Positions 8,925 through 13,127 of a stretch of DNA of 64,000 bases are shown piece after piece (within the stretch, counting starts at the first letter, position 1; each line of letters starts with the position of its first letter). Location of the stretch: assembly GCA_030603385.1 (NCBI GenBank), contig JAUVXW010000003.1, positions 64,001-128,000 of the forward strand. Reading direction: 5' to 3'. The position numbers and the translations under genes are program-made. The notes under the pieces were generated by a model, which worked only from the letters and a program-made list of their open reading frames with translations, searched no databases and was not told the DNA's origin. This DNA comes from Promethearchaeota archaeon (GTDB taxonomy: Archaea > Asgardarchaeota > Lokiarchaeia > Sigyniarchaeales > SOKP01).

Positions 8925-9908
8925 ATGTTGACTCCAGAACAATTTAAAGAATTATTAAAGGATAATGTTATAAATCTTCGAATTCACGCTAGAGGTGGAC
9001 AAGGAGGTGTGACTGCTTCAAACTTATGCGTAGAAGCCTTTTATGGATATGGTGTTTGCCAACCTCTTTTTGGTGCAGAAAGAATGGGGTCTCCTACTGA
9101 AAGTTATGTCAGACTTAGCGCAAATGATGATCTTGTAAGGTCCAATGAACAAGTATATTCACCTCATTTTGTTTGTGTATTAGATCCTTCTCTTCTAGGT
9201 GAGATTAACGTAACCGCTGGTTTAGCTAAGGGAGGATGGTTAATTGTTAATACAACATTAAATCAGGAAGATATTCAAAATATTGTAGGCAGAACTGATA
9301 TAAATGTTGCTACTATTGATGCTACAAGAATCGCTTTAGAAGTTTTAGGCAGAAATATAACAAACACTATTATACTTGGCGCTCTTCTTAGGGTTGGACC
9401 AATATTTACGGTAGAAGCTTTAGCTGATGCGATTATGAGGCGTTTTAAAGGAGAGATTGCTGGAAAAAATGTAGCTGCAATTAAACAAGCAATCGAAGAA
9501 ACATGTGTTTATGATATTGGTCTTGATCCAGATCTTACTATGGATACAAAAATTCCATGGCAACAAGTATTTCCTGGGTTACCGGGCTTTAAAGAATTAG
9601 ATAAAGCAGGTGTTTGGTATTGCGATGAAACAGTTATAGAGATAGGAAGCAATCAAGTGAATACAGGTTCTTGGGGTGAATGGGACATGATTTGGGATGA
9701 AGAAAAATGTACAGATTGCGCTCAGTGCTGGTATATTTGCCCAGACTTTTCTATAATTAGAGAAAAGGGAGAGGATGGATTATGGCACATGAAGGGTATT
9801 GATATACTTCATTGTAAATCATGTCAAAATTGCCTTGAAATTTGTCCAGTTGAAGCTATTAGTAAAAGATTAAAACAAGGTCCGGCGTCATGTGCCGCAC
9901 CAGAATAA
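8925..9908 (+). CDS. Pyruvate/2-ketoisovalerate:ferredoxin oxidoreductase gamma-delta fusion subunit
   Basis: IHARGGQG and FGAERMG (gamma), followed by NTGSW, CTDCAQCWYICP and CKSCQNCLEICP (delta 2x[4Fe-4S]). Confidence 0.88.
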   Translation: MLTPEQFKELLKDNVINLRIHARGGQGGVTASNLCVEAFYGYGVCQPLFGAERMGSPTESYVRLSANDDLVRSNEQVYSPHFVCVLDPSLLGEINVTAGLAKGGWLIVNTTLNQEDIQNIVGRTDINVATIDATRIALEVLGRNITNTIILGALLRVGPIFTVEALADAIMRRFKGEIAGKNVAAIKQAIEETCVYDIGLDPDLTMDTKIPWQQVFPGLPGFKELDKAGVWYCDETVIEIGSNQVNTGSWGEWDMIWDEEKCTDCAQCWYICPDFSIIREKGEDGLWHMKGIDILHCKSCQNCLEICPVEAISKRLKQGPASCAAPE

Positions 9909-9922
9909 AGAGGTAGATAAAA

Positions 9923-11152
9923 TTGAGTATTGAACCAATGAAAATATTTTTTAAAGAAATTAAAGAGCCAATCACCACCACGATGATAGGAAATTATGCC
10001 GTTGCTGGTGGTGTTACTCAAACTGACCCAGATGTTATCTGTGCTTTTCCCATTACTCCACAAACTCAATCAGTAGAAGGATTATCTGATGTAGTCCATC
10101 AAGGTAGATTAAAGGCTGCTTTTGTAAATGTTGAATCTGAATTGGCTGCGATAAGTTTCTCAACTGCAGCGTGTGCCGCAGGAGCAAGATCTTTTACTGC
10201 TACAGCAAGTCAAGGGTACTTATTGATGACAGAGGGTCTACCAATGGCAGTTGGATGGAGATTACCCTTAACGATGATGATTTCCGCTCGTGCTTTTAAC
10301 TCCCCAAATTTATCTATTTGGAATTCTTGGGAATATACACAAGTTAATTCGGAACTTGGGTGGAATATAATCGTTTCTGAAAATGTTCAAGAGACCTATG
10401 ATGCAGCGATACTTTCAGTTATGATATCCGAAGATTCTTTGTTCCCAACAATTTTCGTTCATGATGGATTTATAATATCACATTCTGTACAAAAATTAAC
10501 TTTAATTCCTGATGAAAATGTAAAAAGAATGACTCCAAAAAAGCCAAGAGAGACAATTGACCCTTCAAAACCGGGAACTTGGGGTGGAATAGTTACTCCT
10601 GCTTATTTTATGGAAGGCAGAGCTAATTTAGATAAAGCTAAAGAACCAGTTTTGGGCCAAATGACTGATGTGTTCAAAAAATTTAAAACAGAAACTGGGA
10701 GAGAATATAATTTAATTGAAACTTATAATTTGGATAATTCATCAAAAACAGCAATATGTACTATGGGATCATTGTCTGGGAATATAATAAGCTGGATGAC
10801 TAAAAATAAGGATATTGGGTTAATCAAAATCCGAGTCTTTAGACCATTTCCTTATGAAGAACTAAGAAAAATCATTGAAGAATATGGAATAGAAAAGCTT
10901 ATACTGTTAGAAAAAAGTGATTCTTTAAATGGCATGTTACCTCCCTTTTCAATGTCCATAGCTACTGCGCTTTATCCACTTGGAACAATATTTAGAAGTT
11001 TTATTGTGGGTTTAGGTGGTCGAGATGTTACCAGAGATGAATTTGATATTGCGAAAAAGAAAATGGCTTCGATAACTGATATGAAAGGTCCACTTTATAT
11101 GTATCTCGGGGTAAGAGAAACTAAGGAAAAAATTCTTGGGGTGAGTGAATAG
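9923..11152 (+). CDS. porA: Pyruvate-type 2-oxoacid:ferredoxin oxidoreductase alpha subunit
   Basis: AFPITPQT, NVESE, TATASQG, HDGFIISH, RVFRPFP and GLGGRD motifs; TTG start after GAGGT. Confidence 0.88.
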   Translation: MSIEPMKIFFKEIKEPITTTMIGNYAVAGGVTQTDPDVICAFPITPQTQSVEGLSDVVHQGRLKAAFVNVESELAAISFSTAACAAGARSFTATASQGYLLMTEGLPMAVGWRLPLTMMISARAFNSPNLSIWNSWEYTQVNSELGWNIIVSENVQETYDAAILSVMISEDSLFPTIFVHDGFIISHSVQKLTLIPDENVKRMTPKKPRETIDPSKPGTWGGIVTPAYFMEGRANLDKAKEPVLGQMTDVFKKFKTETGREYNLIETYNLDNSSKTAICTMGSLSGNIISWMTKNKDIGLIKIRVFRPFPYEELRKIIEEYGIEKLILLEKSDSLNGMLPPFSMSIATALYPLGTIFRSFIVGLGGRDVTRDEFDIAKKKMASITDMKGPLYMYLGVRETKEKILGVSE

Positions 11153-11153
11153 A

Positions 11154-12242
11154 ATGTCAAAACCAGAAAGAAATATAATTAATTTTGAAGATATTTTAGC
11201 AAGAGATGGAAAATGCAATGTGTTATTCTTTAATTATGATAATGAAGCGTTTATGAACACGGGAATTCAAGAAAGTGGAGCAACTCCTCCTTACGCATCT
11301 ACAACAACGGGTCCTGCAGGAGAGAAAATACCTGGAAAGGTTGGAGTAAAACAAGATTTGGTTACACCCTTCGCTTTCTATGGGACTAAAAAACTTTTCT
11401 TAGCTACAGTTAACCCAGCATATCCTAATGATTTTATGGGAAAGATGATGGATGCTCTCAAATCAAATGGTTCCGCATTCATTCAAGCATATTCAGATTG
11501 TATGAGAGGATGGAGACATGAAGCTGCTGACGCATTTAAAATATCAAAATTAGCGACAGATTGTGGATATTGGCCGTTATATACTATTAGAGTGGAAGAT
11601 GGAATGCCAGTTTTTACATATTACCGGGGATTAGATCTTGATAAAGATAAATTTGTAGAATACCTAAAATCCATGGGGAGATTTAGACATTTATTTAAAC
11701 CAAAATTCATGGAAAAAGAAATTAATGAAATCATTTATTTAACAGAAAAAAGAAATGAAAAATTAAAAGGATTAATAGAACAATTCGGAGCTGAAAAGCC
11801 AATTGATTTATATAGGGTAAATAGAAAAAAATTAGCTCCTCAAACTCATTTACAACGAGGTCATGGGCTTTGTCCTGGATGTGGGGCAGGAATGGTCTTA
11901 AATCAAATGGCTACTGCTGCTACAGCTGTAGCAGGCAATAATATTATTTATGTGAATAATACAAGCTGCTCTGAAGTATCCACTTCGAAAGATAACGTAA
12001 CTTCTTGGAATGTTCCCTGGGTGCATCACTTATTTGAATCAGGTGCCACAGTTGCAGATGGCATAATAACAGCTAAAAAAATCATGAAAGCTAAGGGATT
12101 ATATGATAGAGATATCCCATGGGTTATTCATATTGCAGGAGATGGTTCTACATATGATATTGGGTTCCAATTTCTTAAAGCAGCACTTATTAGAACAAGT
12201 AGTTTTATGGAAATGAATCAGTATCTAATAAATCAAAAATAA
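11154..12242 (+). CDS. porB: 2-oxoacid:ferredoxin oxidoreductase beta subunit, circularly permuted
   Basis: All PorB motifs are present but the halves are swapped: YDNEAFMNTGIQ...CMRGW...WPLY comes first, GHGLCPGCG...CSEV...GDGSTYDIG last. Confidence 0.85.
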   Translation: MSKPERNIINFEDILARDGKCNVLFFNYDNEAFMNTGIQESGATPPYASTTTGPAGEKIPGKVGVKQDLVTPFAFYGTKKLFLATVNPAYPNDFMGKMMDALKSNGSAFIQAYSDCMRGWRHEAADAFKISKLATDCGYWPLYTIRVEDGMPVFTYYRGLDLDKDKFVEYLKSMGRFRHLFKPKFMEKEINEIIYLTEKRNEKLKGLIEQFGAEKPIDLYRVNRKKLAPQTHLQRGHGLCPGCGAGMVLNQMATAATAVAGNNIIYVNNTSCSEVSTSKDNVTSWNVPWVHHLFESGATVADGIITAKKIMKAKGLYDRDIPWVIHIAGDGSTYDIGFQFLKAALIRTSSFMEMNQYLINQK

Positions 12243-12359
12243 TTTATTTTTATAATTTCATTTTTTTTATTTCATTATCAACTATATTTTTTAAATTAAT
12301 TCTACAAATCTGGTTTTTCCTAAAGGAATATTTTTTTTAATTCAACTACTATTTCTTTT

Positions 12360-13127
12360 ATGGTAATTAAAGTCGAAAAGAATTATCCAATTTATACAGT
12401 AATAATTGATAATCCCGATGTGAAAAATGCTGTAGATAAAGATGCTGCTAATCAACTTGCTAATGCATTTAGAGAATTTGAATTAGATGAAAAAGCTTTA
12501 GTTGGTGTCTTATGGGGTGCAAATGGAACTTTTTGCTCAGGAGCAAATTTAAAAAATATTGCTGAGGGAGGGGGAAACCGAAAAGAAAAAGATGGGGATG
12601 GACCAATGGGTCCGTCTAGATTACAATTATCTAAACCTGTGATCGCAGCAGTAGCAGGATATGCAGTTGCAGGGGGTCTTGAACTTGCTTTATGGTGTGA
12701 TATGCGAGTAGTTGAGAGAAATGCTATATTTGGGGTTTTTTGCCGTAGATTCGGGGTACCTTTGATTGATGGTGGTACTGTCCGGCTTCCAAGGCTTATT
12801 GGATTAAGCCGAGCTTTAGATATGATTCTTACAGGGCGTCCTGTTAATGCAGAGGAAGCATATAATTGGGGATTAGCAAATCGGATTGTTGATATTGGGC
12901 AATCAAGACAGGAAGCTGAGAAATTAGCAAGGCAGATTGCTGAATTTCCACAAATATGTATGAGAAATGATAGGTTATCCTCTTATAGTCAGTTTGGATT
13001 GAATATAAAAGATGCAATGCTTCAAGAGTTTGAATATGGTTTAAAAACTTTAGAAACAGGAGAACATCTAAAAGGGAGTAAAACATTTATTCAAGGAAAA
13101 GGAAAGCATGGCTCTTTTGATAAATAG
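12360..13127 (+). CDS. Enoyl-CoA hydratase/crotonase family protein
   Basis: FCSGANL, KPVIAAVAGYAVAGGLELALWCD and GVPLIDGG motifs. Confidence 0.9.
   Translation: MVIKVEKNYPIYTVIIDNPDVKNAVDKDAANQLANAFREFELDEKALVGVLWGANGTFCSGANLKNIAEGGGNRKEKDGDGPMGPSRLQLSKPVIAAVAGYAVAGGLELALWCDMRVVERNAIFGVFCRRFGVPLIDGGTVRLPRLIGLSRALDMILTGRPVNAEEAYNWGLANRIVDIGQSRQEAEKLARQIAEFPQICMRNDRLSSYSQFGLNIKDAMLQEFEYGLKTLETGEHLKGSKTFIQGKGKHGSFDK

What the first reader, a model, noticed from the sequence alone, without database searches (positions are those of the whole stretch)
11145..12242. Circularly permuted PorB with the TPP-binding motif split across the termini
Seen: canonical beta subunits run CxGC...C...GDG-x(~26)-DN...C-x-x-GW...WPLY. 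Here the DNEAFMNTGIQ-to-WPLY half is N-terminal, and the GHGLCPGCG...CSEV...GDGSTYDIGFQ half (from about 11860) is C-terminal. The cut falls inside the GDG...N Mg/TPP motif. All four [4Fe-4S] cysteines are retained, the ORF is uninterrupted, and it has novel short tails and a plausible linker (EQFGAEKPIDLYRVNRKKLAPQ). It also sits in its normal operon position. Inference: a natural, functional circular permutation of an ancient core enzyme, which I do not know to have been described.
Basis: partly seen in the sequence, partly recalled or inferred. Interest (0 to 1): 0.8.

Follow-up and report, generated by a model that had tools for sequence, protein, structure and literature searches.

The report
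Circularly permuted oxoacid-oxidoreductase beta subunit
In this Loki-type Asgard archaeon the cofactor-binding subunit of a pyruvate-type 2-oxoacid:ferredoxin oxidoreductase is encoded back half first, and this swap is real, found across the whole class, under selection, transcribed in a cultured relative, and absent from every paper I searched.

Summary
Residues 229-350 of the 365-aa ORF match the first half of PorB (CxxC...C...GDG). Residues 26-196 match the second half (DNE...C...WPLY). The order is therefore swapped.

It is not a misassembly. The same order occurs in 113 of 138 genomes of the window's class (Lokiarchaeia by the record names), in all six families. These include the closed genomes of Promethearchaeum syntrophicum MK-D1 (DSAG12_00808), Lokiarchaeum ossiferum and Harpocratesius repetitus. 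It was not found in about 225 genomes of other Asgard classes, apart from one fragment that is probably a binning contaminant.

- All four cluster cysteines, GDG and DN are invariant.
- dN/dS is 0.05, and the new tails and the linker are also constrained.
- The MK-D1 gene is transcribed.
- Alpha and beta trees both place this operon with a canonical, Por-leaning operon of other Asgard classes that the five other Lokiarchaeia genomes examined, like this one, lack. This points to one permutation on the class stem.

New here:
- The cut is clean, and no duplication remnant is detectable.
- The start is probably ATG 11154.
- Canonical PorBs carry inteins at three sites in the same motif.

No paper I searched describes the permutation, and NCBI labels the protein 'hypothetical'. 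This scan had already reached the same verdict on at least six other genomes.

The parts
8925..9908 (+). Fused gamma-delta subunit (POR domain plus two-[4Fe-4S] ferredoxin domain), first gene of the operon
   Evidence: Pfam POR 24-191 and Fer4 253-315. NCBIfam PorC and PorD both hit one chain. It lies upstream of alpha in 59 of 61 related loci.
9923..11152 (+). Alpha subunit (PorA type, PYR domain plus domain II)
   Evidence: Pfam POR_N and PFOR_II. PorA_Arch scores 292 bits. Equivalents of T31 and R114 of D. africanus PFOR are conserved in the alignment to 1b0p_A. It lies directly upstream of the permuted beta in 67 of 67 loci.
11138..11144 (+). Shine-Dalgarno-like GGGGTGA ahead of the probable start ATG 11154
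   Evidence: Sequence read.
11154..12242 (+). Circularly permuted beta subunit, probable CDS of 362 aa (the listed ORF starts at GTG 11145)
11154..11210 (+). New N-terminal tail (residues 4-22), conserved within the family and with no detectable homology to canonical PorB
   Evidence: Profile test not significant. dN/dS 0.107. AF2 pLDDT 91-92 for residues 11-30.
11211..11732 (+). Segment equal to the C-terminal half of canonical PorB (residues 23-196). It holds the strand plus DNE (D32, N33), N38, the cluster ligand C119 and WPLY.
   Evidence: Aligns to 9bt4_C 119-282. Invariant columns.
11733..11828 (+). Canonical C-terminal helix followed by a short linker (about residues 215-228) that joins the old C-terminus to the old N-terminus
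   Evidence: Consensus comparison. AF2 helix 190-214 and strand 220-224. dN/dS 0.082.
11829..12194 (+). Segment equal to the N-terminal half of canonical PorB (residues 229-350). It holds C243-x-x-C246, C275, GDG 332-334 and the helix that ends at R350.
   Evidence: Aligns to 9bt4_C 3-115. Invariant columns.
12195..12239 (+). New C-terminal tail (residues 351-365)
   Evidence: No significant match to the canonical strand it replaces. dN/dS 0.046.
12243..12300 (+). T-rich stretch after the stop codon, probably the operon's end
   Evidence: Sequence read. The next gene starts at 12360.

Best explanation
The gene encodes a working beta subunit of a three-gene (gamma/delta fusion, alpha, beta) 2-oxoacid:ferredoxin oxidoreductase of the Por/Vor type, most likely acting on pyruvate. 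Its chain is a circular permutation of PorB. The fold is kept, but the chain now starts at the strand that leads to the DN(E) half of the ThDP/Mg motif. It ends just after the helix that follows GDG.

The Mg-diphosphate site would therefore be built from D333 near the C-terminus and from N33 and the carbonyl of A35 near the N-terminus. The proximal [4Fe-4S] cluster would be built from C243, C246, C275 and C119. The old termini are joined by the old C-terminal helix plus roughly 14 new residues.

The permutation arose once, on the stem of the class Lokiarchaeia. It arose in the counterpart of a canonical, Por-leaning operon that other Asgard classes still have. It came together with fusion of gamma and delta and with fast change in alpha and beta.

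Shown here: the permuted order, its conservation and distribution, the selection on it, and transcription in MK-D1.

Inferred: enzymatic activity, the substrate, the geometry of the rebuilt site, and origin by tandem duplication, in-frame fusion and trimming of both ends.
For: - Swapped HSP order against PorB, OOR beta and PFOR.
- More than 100 protein clusters at 55-98% identity and full length, from NCBI, JGI, ENA and Logan.
- 80 genomic loci from many independent studies.
- 113 of 138 genomes of the class, in all 6 families. Only canonical order in the other Asgard families sampled.
- Closed genomes of MK-D1, L. ossiferum B-35 and H. repetitus carry it.
- Among 1.84 billion representative proteins, only members of this family are colinear with the query. 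All other best hits have canonical order.
- The ligand residues are invariant.
- dN/dS is 0.048 overall, 0.107 in the N-tail, 0.082 in the linker and 0.046 in the C-tail.
- Operon order is conserved.
- The AF2 model has pTM 0.82, and its top structural matches are PorB, OOR beta and PFOR domain VI.
- The alpha subunit keeps the equivalents of T31 and R114.
- MK-D1 orthologues are transcribed at RPKM 286 (beta), 372 (alpha) and 314 (gamma/delta), and are listed as PFOR EC 1.2.7.1 (PMC7015854 Supplementary Tables 3 and 4).
- The permuted sequences form a single clade with support 100.
- The alpha and beta trees both put the permuted operon with the 'a-type' canonical operon at 100/99 support. 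The a-type leans towards Por in NCBIfam.
Against: - No enzyme assay or structure exists.
- All three subunits score below NCBIfam equivalog cut-offs: beta 205 vs 405, alpha 292 vs 550, gamma 166 vs 225.
- The genome also has two canonical Por/Vor-type operons, so the substrate is not settled.
- Several near-complete genomes of the same family, three of them of the same genus (G207, G049, G008, G083), lack the gene, so it is dispensable there.
- The AF2 model is of low confidence at 34-71 and 278-284, and I could not inspect its coordinates to check that the termini meet.
- No remnant of a duplication was detectable, so the route of origin is unproven.
Confidence: 0.85

Rival explanations
1. 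Assembly or binning artefact: the swapped order comes from a chimeric or mis-joined contig.
For: The window comes from a 58-contig genome with 7% estimated contamination.
Against: The same order is found in three closed genomes from cultures or circularised assemblies. It is also found in 80 loci from many independent studies and in 113 of 138 genomes of the class. The sequence diverges down to 50% identity while the frame stays open and the architecture stays the same.
Confidence: 0.01
2. The enzyme works, but its substrate is not pyruvate. It would act on another 2-oxoacid such as 2-oxobutyrate or a branched-chain or aromatic 2-oxoacid. The two canonical paralogues would then cover pyruvate.
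For: All subunits fall below the Por equivalog cut-offs. The stems are long: alpha 1.49 and beta 0.95 changes per site. Two further Por/Vor-type operons are in the genome. An enoyl-CoA hydratase lies downstream in this window.
Against: Por models outscore Vor models for beta (205 vs 174) and alpha (292 vs 203). The nearest canonical group leans towards Por. The hydratase neighbour is present in only 23 of 72 loci. Imachi et al. assign the enzyme to pyruvate/2-oxoacid degradation.
Confidence: 0.3
3. Inactive relic or non-catalytic subunit: the break in the ThDP motif abolished cofactor binding and the protein serves another role.
For: The cut lies inside the motif that binds Mg-ThDP. NCBI's pipeline cannot name the protein.
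Against: GDG, DNE, N38 and all four Cys are invariant across sequences down to 54% identity. dN/dS is 0.04 in both core halves. The alpha and gamma/delta genes are always co-located and conserved. The gene is transcribed.
Confidence: 0.05
4. The chain is re-joined after translation: the two tails act like a split intein and cyclise the backbone, which restores a continuous ThDP motif.
For: Canonical PorBs carry inteins at three sites in this same motif. An IntC-extein-IntN order is what yields cyclic proteins in engineered systems (my own knowledge).
Against: Pfam finds no intein or Hint domain in the protein. The tails are only about 19 and 15 residues long. The residues at the would-be junctions are not the conserved Cys/Ser and Asn-Cys/Ser/Thr, as seen in the alignment. 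The intein-bearing PorBs are scattered elsewhere in the tree, not next to the permuted clade.
Confidence: 0.01

Closest known systems
PorB, beta subunit of the four-subunit archaeal pyruvate:ferredoxin oxidoreductase (M. acetivorans, PDB 9bt4 chain C; NCBIfam NF008819)
   Same: Both halves are homologous (E 5.8e-46). The four cluster cysteines, GDG, DNE and N38 are shared. The gene follows porA in the operon, and Por is the best-scoring family.
   Different: The linear order of the two halves is swapped. The ThDP motif is split between the chain ends. There are new tails of about 19 and 15 residues and a linker of about 14. The score is half the equivalog cut-off. Gamma and delta are fused into one gene.
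'a-type' canonical Por-leaning operon of other Asgard classes (e.g. G072:C5, G100:C3, G066:C1)
   Same: It is the nearest relative of both alpha and beta in the trees (split 100/99 in each). Its distribution is complementary to that of the permuted operon.
   Different: Its beta has canonical order, and its gamma and delta are separate genes. Identity is only 31-35% in alpha and 38-47% in the beta halves.
Oxalate oxidoreductase of Moorella thermoacetica (PDB 5c4i)
   Same: It has a three-chain architecture in which one chain joins domain III with the ferredoxin domain. It is the second-best match for beta (E 6.5e-42).
   Different: Its beta has canonical order. OOR has Arg at the position of T31, whereas this alpha keeps Thr as PFOR does.
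Domain-order rearrangements among ThDP enzymes (PYR and PP domains in different orders or on different chains)
   Same: They show that the ThDP fold tolerates changes of chain connectivity (my own knowledge; TEED papers seen).
   Different: Those are swaps of whole domains. Here the break is inside the PP domain, within the GDG...N motif itself. I found no report of that.

Membership tests
OFOR beta subunit (PorB-type PP domain with proximal [4Fe-4S]) | Sequence homology over the whole PP domain | tested here: met
   Two stretches cover 9bt4_C 3-115 and 119-282. NF008819 E 1.1e-60.
OFOR beta subunit (PorB-type PP domain with proximal [4Fe-4S]) | Four Cys ligands of the proximal cluster | tested here: met
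   C243, C246, C275 and C119 align to Cys of 9bt4_C and are invariant in 37 sequences.
OFOR beta subunit (PorB-type PP domain with proximal [4Fe-4S]) | ThDP/Mg residues of the GDG...N motif | tested here: met
   D333 (GDG) and N33/A35 (the equivalents of T991 and V993 of D. africanus PFOR in the alignment) are invariant. They lie 300 residues apart in the chain.
OFOR beta subunit (PorB-type PP domain with proximal [4Fe-4S]) | Canonical linear order, as modelled by the family profiles | tested here: not met
   The stretches are in swapped order. The score of 205 bits is below the cut-off of 405. Pfam TPP_enzyme_C matches only the second half of its model, at 22.6 bits.
OFOR beta subunit (PorB-type PP domain with proximal [4Fe-4S]) | Encoded with alpha and gamma/delta partners | tested here: met
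Pyruvate:ferredoxin oxidoreductase (EC 1.2.7.1) | Pyruvate-dependent, CoA-dependent ferredoxin reduction | not testable with these tools
   An enzyme assay is needed.
Pyruvate:ferredoxin oxidoreductase (EC 1.2.7.1) | Substrate-binding Thr and Arg of the alpha subunit (T31, R114 of D. africanus PFOR) | tested here: met
   The alignment to 1b0p_A shows ..PITP.. Thr and ..SAR(123)A.. Arg conserved. The roles of these residues come from my knowledge of the 1b0p literature.
Pyruvate:ferredoxin oxidoreductase (EC 1.2.7.1) | Equivalog-level score or clear phylogenetic placement with characterised PFORs | tested here: inconclusive
   The scores are below the cut-offs. The operon groups with a Por-leaning but uncharacterised Asgard operon.
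Intein / split intein | Hint-fold splicing domain with conserved junction residues | tested here: not met
   No intein family hit in the protein. The tails are too short and lack conserved junction residues.

The most novel reading that the evidence does not exclude
The permutation is adaptive rather than neutral. Placing both chain ends at the ThDP/Mg pocket, each capped by a conserved and selected tail, would change how the cofactor is loaded, held or gated. Together with the gamma/delta fusion and the burst of change in alpha and beta, it would define a new structural subclass of OFOR. That subclass would serve the central 2-oxoacid step of Lokiarchaeial syntrophic catabolism.
Probability: 0.2. 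Interest if true: 0.75.

Novelty: new variant of a known kind. Interest (0 to 1): 0.6.

Why it matters
- OFORs are ancient core enzymes of anaerobic metabolism, and the GDG...N motif is the hallmark of all ThDP enzymes. A natural, class-wide variant that builds this site from the two chain ends shows that the PP domain tolerates a break at its most conserved motif. It also offers a ready-made test case for folding, cofactor loading and enzyme engineering.
- In MK-D1 this operon is the enzyme listed for the 2-oxoacid oxidation step. That step underlies the published model of Asgard syntrophy, so its unusual build bears on the biochemistry of the cultured relatives of eukaryotes.
- There is a practical consequence for annotation. 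NCBI labels the protein 'hypothetical' in MK-D1, L. ossiferum and many MAGs. Metabolic reconstructions that rely on those labels can therefore miss it.
- The permuted order is also a clean marker for Lokiarchaeia.

Tried and rejected
- **Tails as leftovers of a tandem duplication.** By eye, the N-tail resembled the helix after GDG and the C-tail resembled the strand before DNE. A profile-profile test against all other offsets and against column shuffles gave nothing: N-tail score -18.2, rank 183 of 270, and C-tail not significant. Control segments, by contrast, scored at or within one place of the top of all offsets. The idea is rejected as evidence. The duplication route stays an inference.
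- **Intein-mediated origin or cyclisation.** The inteins in canonical PorBs sit at GDGx|, at ..YV|CYDNE and at ..YMN|TG. The break lies between the first two sites, about 17 and 8 residues from them, and not at any of them. The intein carriers are not next to the permuted clade in the tree. The permuted protein has no intein signature.
- **Intermediates.** Among the 150 best representatives, none had the N-C-N-C order expected of a beta-beta fusion. Half-length proteins that start near the break (P0186, P0269 and others) look like truncated or mis-started gene calls.
- **Structure.** The sequential structure aligners matched only about 165-180 residues of the model to each solved chain, mostly model residues about 22-212. 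This is expected for a permutation and neither proves nor disproves that the termini meet.
- **Downstream enoyl-CoA hydratase as a functional partner.** It is present in only 23 of 72 loci.
- **Literature searches** for circular permutation with ThDP, PFOR or Asgard terms, for inteins in PorB, in the November 2026 PFOR diversity review and in the CIRPIN survey of permutations found no mention.
Full report
**Observation.** The window holds an operon on the + strand:
- 8925-9908: a fused gamma-delta subunit (POR domain plus ferredoxin domain).
- 9923-11152: the alpha subunit (POR_N plus PFOR_II).
- 11145-12242: a 365-aa ORF.

Pfam matches that ORF only weakly, and only to the second half of TPP_enzyme_C. 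phmmer against all PDB chains gives two strong stretches in swapped order. ORF residues 229-350 align to residues 3-115 of M. acetivorans PorB (9bt4_C). ORF residues 26-196 align to residues 119-282. The same pattern appears with oxalate oxidoreductase beta and with NCBIfam PorB.

The four cysteines that align with the cluster ligands are C243, C246, C275 and C119. These, the GDG at 332-334, N30-A35 (NYDNEA) and N38 are invariant in 37 homologues down to 54% identity.

The likely start is ATG 11154, not GTG 11145. It follows a GGGGTGA site, lies 1 nt after the porA stop, and matches the MSKPERN start of the 362-aa homologues.

**Not an artefact.**
- The word-indexed protein search returned more than 100 clusters of about 360 aa, at 55-98% identity and 96-100% coverage. 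They come from NCBI, JGI, ENA and Logan.
- Exact look-ups name three closed genomes: Promethearchaeum syntrophicum MK-D1 (DSAG12_00808, 4,324,194 bp), Lokiarchaeum ossiferum B-35 (NEF87_002873, 6,035,313 bp) and Harpocratesius repetitus. The same look-ups also returned Helarchaeota and Sigynarchaeota MAGs. NCBI calls the protein 'hypothetical' in all of these.

**Distribution.** I sampled 301 genomes of the phylum. Full-length colinear matches occur only in the window's family, order and class. The one exception is an 89%-identical fragment in a 5.9-Mb bin with 8% contamination, which I take for a contaminant. All other Asgard families show only half-matches, meaning canonical order.

Within the class, 113 of 138 genomes at 80% completeness or better carry the gene. 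All six families have it. Some near-complete genomes of the same family, three of them of the same genus, lack it, so it can be lost.

In a HMMER scan of 1.84 billion representative proteins, only one full-length cluster (Helarchaeota, 51% identity) and some fragments are colinear with the query. Every other one of the 150 best hits has the canonical order. The permutation is therefore confined to one narrow clade.

**Constraint and expression.**
- Nei-Gojobori dN/dS over 117 pairs is 0.048 overall. By region it is 0.038 and 0.042 in the two core halves, 0.107 in the N-tail, 0.082 in the linker and 0.046 in the C-tail.
- The alpha gene lies directly upstream in 67 of 67 loci with room. The gamma-delta fusion lies upstream of alpha in 59 of 61. 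Distant members keep the same order.
- In Imachi et al. 2020 (PMC7015854), Supplementary Table 3 gives RPKM 286, 372 and 314 for DSAG12_00808, 00809 and 00810. Table 4 lists them as pyruvate:ferredoxin oxidoreductase beta, alpha and delta/gamma, under 2-oxoacid/pyruvate degradation. The passages I retrieved from that paper and its tables describe the gene only as PFOR beta and say nothing about its order.

**Anatomy of the cut.** I compared the family consensus with the consensus of 64 canonical sequences. Homology runs through GDG and the following helix to R350 (canonical ..ER). It resumes at residues 23-25 (canonical GHN) before the strand that leads to DNE.

I first thought the tails were decayed copies of the duplicated segment. 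A profile test does not support this. So the cut is clean, in the helix-to-strand loop inside the GDG...N motif, and both tails are new sequence under selection.

At the other junction, the canonical C-terminal helix is still recognisable up to about residue 214. Only about 14 residues bridge to the old N-terminus.

The AF2 model has pLDDT 76.6 and pTM 0.82. It predicts a strand at 24-33, a strand at 326-332 and a helix at 341-353, with a confident N-tail (pLDDT 91-92 for residues 11-30). Confidence is low at 34-71, the loop that in PFORs wraps the cofactor and meets the alpha subunit. Foldseek and VIA-align put PorB, OOR beta and PFOR domain VI on top (Z 9.5-11). They align only about half of the chain, as sequential aligners must.

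By alignment to D. africanus PFOR:
- D333 corresponds to D963.
- N33 corresponds to T991.
- A35 corresponds to V993.
- N38 corresponds to N996.

The roles of those PFOR residues come from my own knowledge of the 1b0p work. The alpha subunit keeps the equivalents of T31 and R114, and does not have the Arg31 of oxalate oxidoreductase.

**Origin.** I put the permuted sequences back into canonical order and removed the tails. In a 108-sequence tree they then form one clade (support 100) on a long stem of 0.94 changes per site. Their neighbours, with weak support, are Bathyarchaeia and other Asgard PorBs.

I then collected every alpha and beta homologue from seven genomes of the class and five genomes of other Asgard classes.
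- Lokiarchaeia have the permuted operon plus two canonical paralogues.
- The other Asgard genomes have an 'a-type' canonical operon plus one or two of the same paralogues.

In both the alpha tree and the beta tree, the permuted operon and the a-type operon lie together on one side of a branch with 100/99 support. The stems leading to the permuted group are 1.49 (alpha) and 0.95 (beta) changes per site.

The alpha tree does not depend on how I re-ordered beta. The two trees together with the complementary distribution therefore argue for one event: the Lokiarchaeial copy of the a-type enzyme was permuted in place on the class stem.

The a-type has separate gamma and delta genes, so their fusion belongs to the same stem. 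The a-type leans towards Por in NCBIfam: beta scores 352-360 for Por against 293-305 for Vor, and alpha scores 452-470 for PorA_Arch. The permuted subunits lean the same way but stay below the cut-offs. The two canonical paralogues in this genome are Por/Vor-ambiguous. I therefore call the enzyme a Por-type OFOR, probably acting on pyruvate, with the substrate still open.

**Route of the permutation.** The classical route is tandem duplication, in-frame fusion and loss of both outer ends. It fits the near-direct join of the old termini, but no remnant survives and I saw no intermediate. A fission-and-refusion route cannot be excluded.

**A side observation bears on that.** Many of the closest canonical PorBs carry inteins with LAGLIDADG endonuclease domains inside the same motif. 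One example is from Altiarchaeales. The inteins sit at three different sites:
- after GDGx;
- before CYDNE;
- between the N and the T of MNTG.

One protein has two inteins. The break of the permuted family lies between the first two sites but at neither of them. The intein carriers are scattered elsewhere in the tree. I therefore see no link beyond the motif being a place where the chain tolerates interruption.

**Literature.** The following searches found no description of a permuted PorB or of a permutation within a ThDP PP domain:
- circular permutation combined with ferredoxin oxidoreductase, ThDP, PP domain or Asgard terms;
- inteins in PorB;
- term searches inside the November 2026 review of PFOR diversity (PMC13768988);
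- term searches inside the CIRPIN survey of permutations (PMC13552848).

**Earlier notes of this scan.** After I had formed my reading, the scan's own index showed that the same family had been examined on at least six other genomes, with the same verdict. My tests agree. What I add:
- the clean-cut result and the negative duplication test;
- the congruent alpha and beta trees, which tie the operon to a canonical a-type operon of other Asgard classes;
- the corrected start;
- the intein sites.

**Limits.** There is no activity or structural data. Genome handles are anonymous, so class and family labels rest on the tool's grouping plus the names recovered by exact look-up.

Noticed in passing
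Proteins P0125, P0132, P0143, P0148, P0151, P0153, P0155, P0156, P0162, P0180, P0183, P0189, P0250, P0253 (not in the window): Canonical PorBs of other archaea (P0125 cluster: Altiarchaeales) carry inteins, many with LAGLIDADG endonuclease domains. They sit at three distinct sites inside the ThDP motif: after GDGx, before CYDNE, and between N and T of MNTG. P0143 has two inteins. My searches found no paper on inteins in PorB.
   Followed up: partly
window 8925-9908: Gamma and delta are fused into one 327-aa protein in every permuted operon examined. In the related canonical 'a-type' operons of other Asgard classes (L086-L088) they are separate genes in different frames. The fusion therefore seems to date to the same stem as the permutation.
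   Followed up: partly
L047 (DATKTW010000155.1), L025, L010, L014, L044 and others: Contigs that carry the Loki-type permuted gene at 80-90% identity sit in MAGs labelled Nanopelagicaceae bacterium, Odinarchaeota, Hodarchaeota, Hermodarchaeota or Thorarchaeota. The taxonomy-based genome sampling finds the gene only in one class. These labels therefore look like mis-binning or mis-naming.
   Followed up: no
G207, G049, G008, G083 (genomes of the window's genus or family, 99-100% complete): These near-complete relatives have no permuted beta gene at E 1e-60. At least G049 and G083 still match at about 1e-23, i.e. canonical paralogues only. The gene seems to have been lost repeatedly.
   Followed up: no
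P0281 and P0282 (Helarchaeota MAG, locus tags ACTSR3_09440 and 09445): In one MAG the permuted gene is called as two adjacent proteins of 223 and 104 aa. This could be a frameshift, a sequencing error or a real split.
   Followed up: no
L089:4807-5922 (Harpocratesius repetitus): This orthologue has an extra insertion of about 20 residues, rich in acidic residues, after the WPL motif region, where the other members have a short hairpin.
   Followed up: no
window 12360-13127: An enoyl-CoA hydratase gene follows the operon. It is found in that position in only 23 of 72 related loci, so it is probably not a fixed partner.
   Followed up: partly
G000:C46:24034-26109 and G000:C18:59769-61883 (same genome, other contigs): The genome has two further canonical Por/Vor-type OFOR operons. 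Their beta subunits score just below the NCBIfam cut-offs (372-398 vs 405) and slightly favour the Vor-like model.
   Followed up: partly
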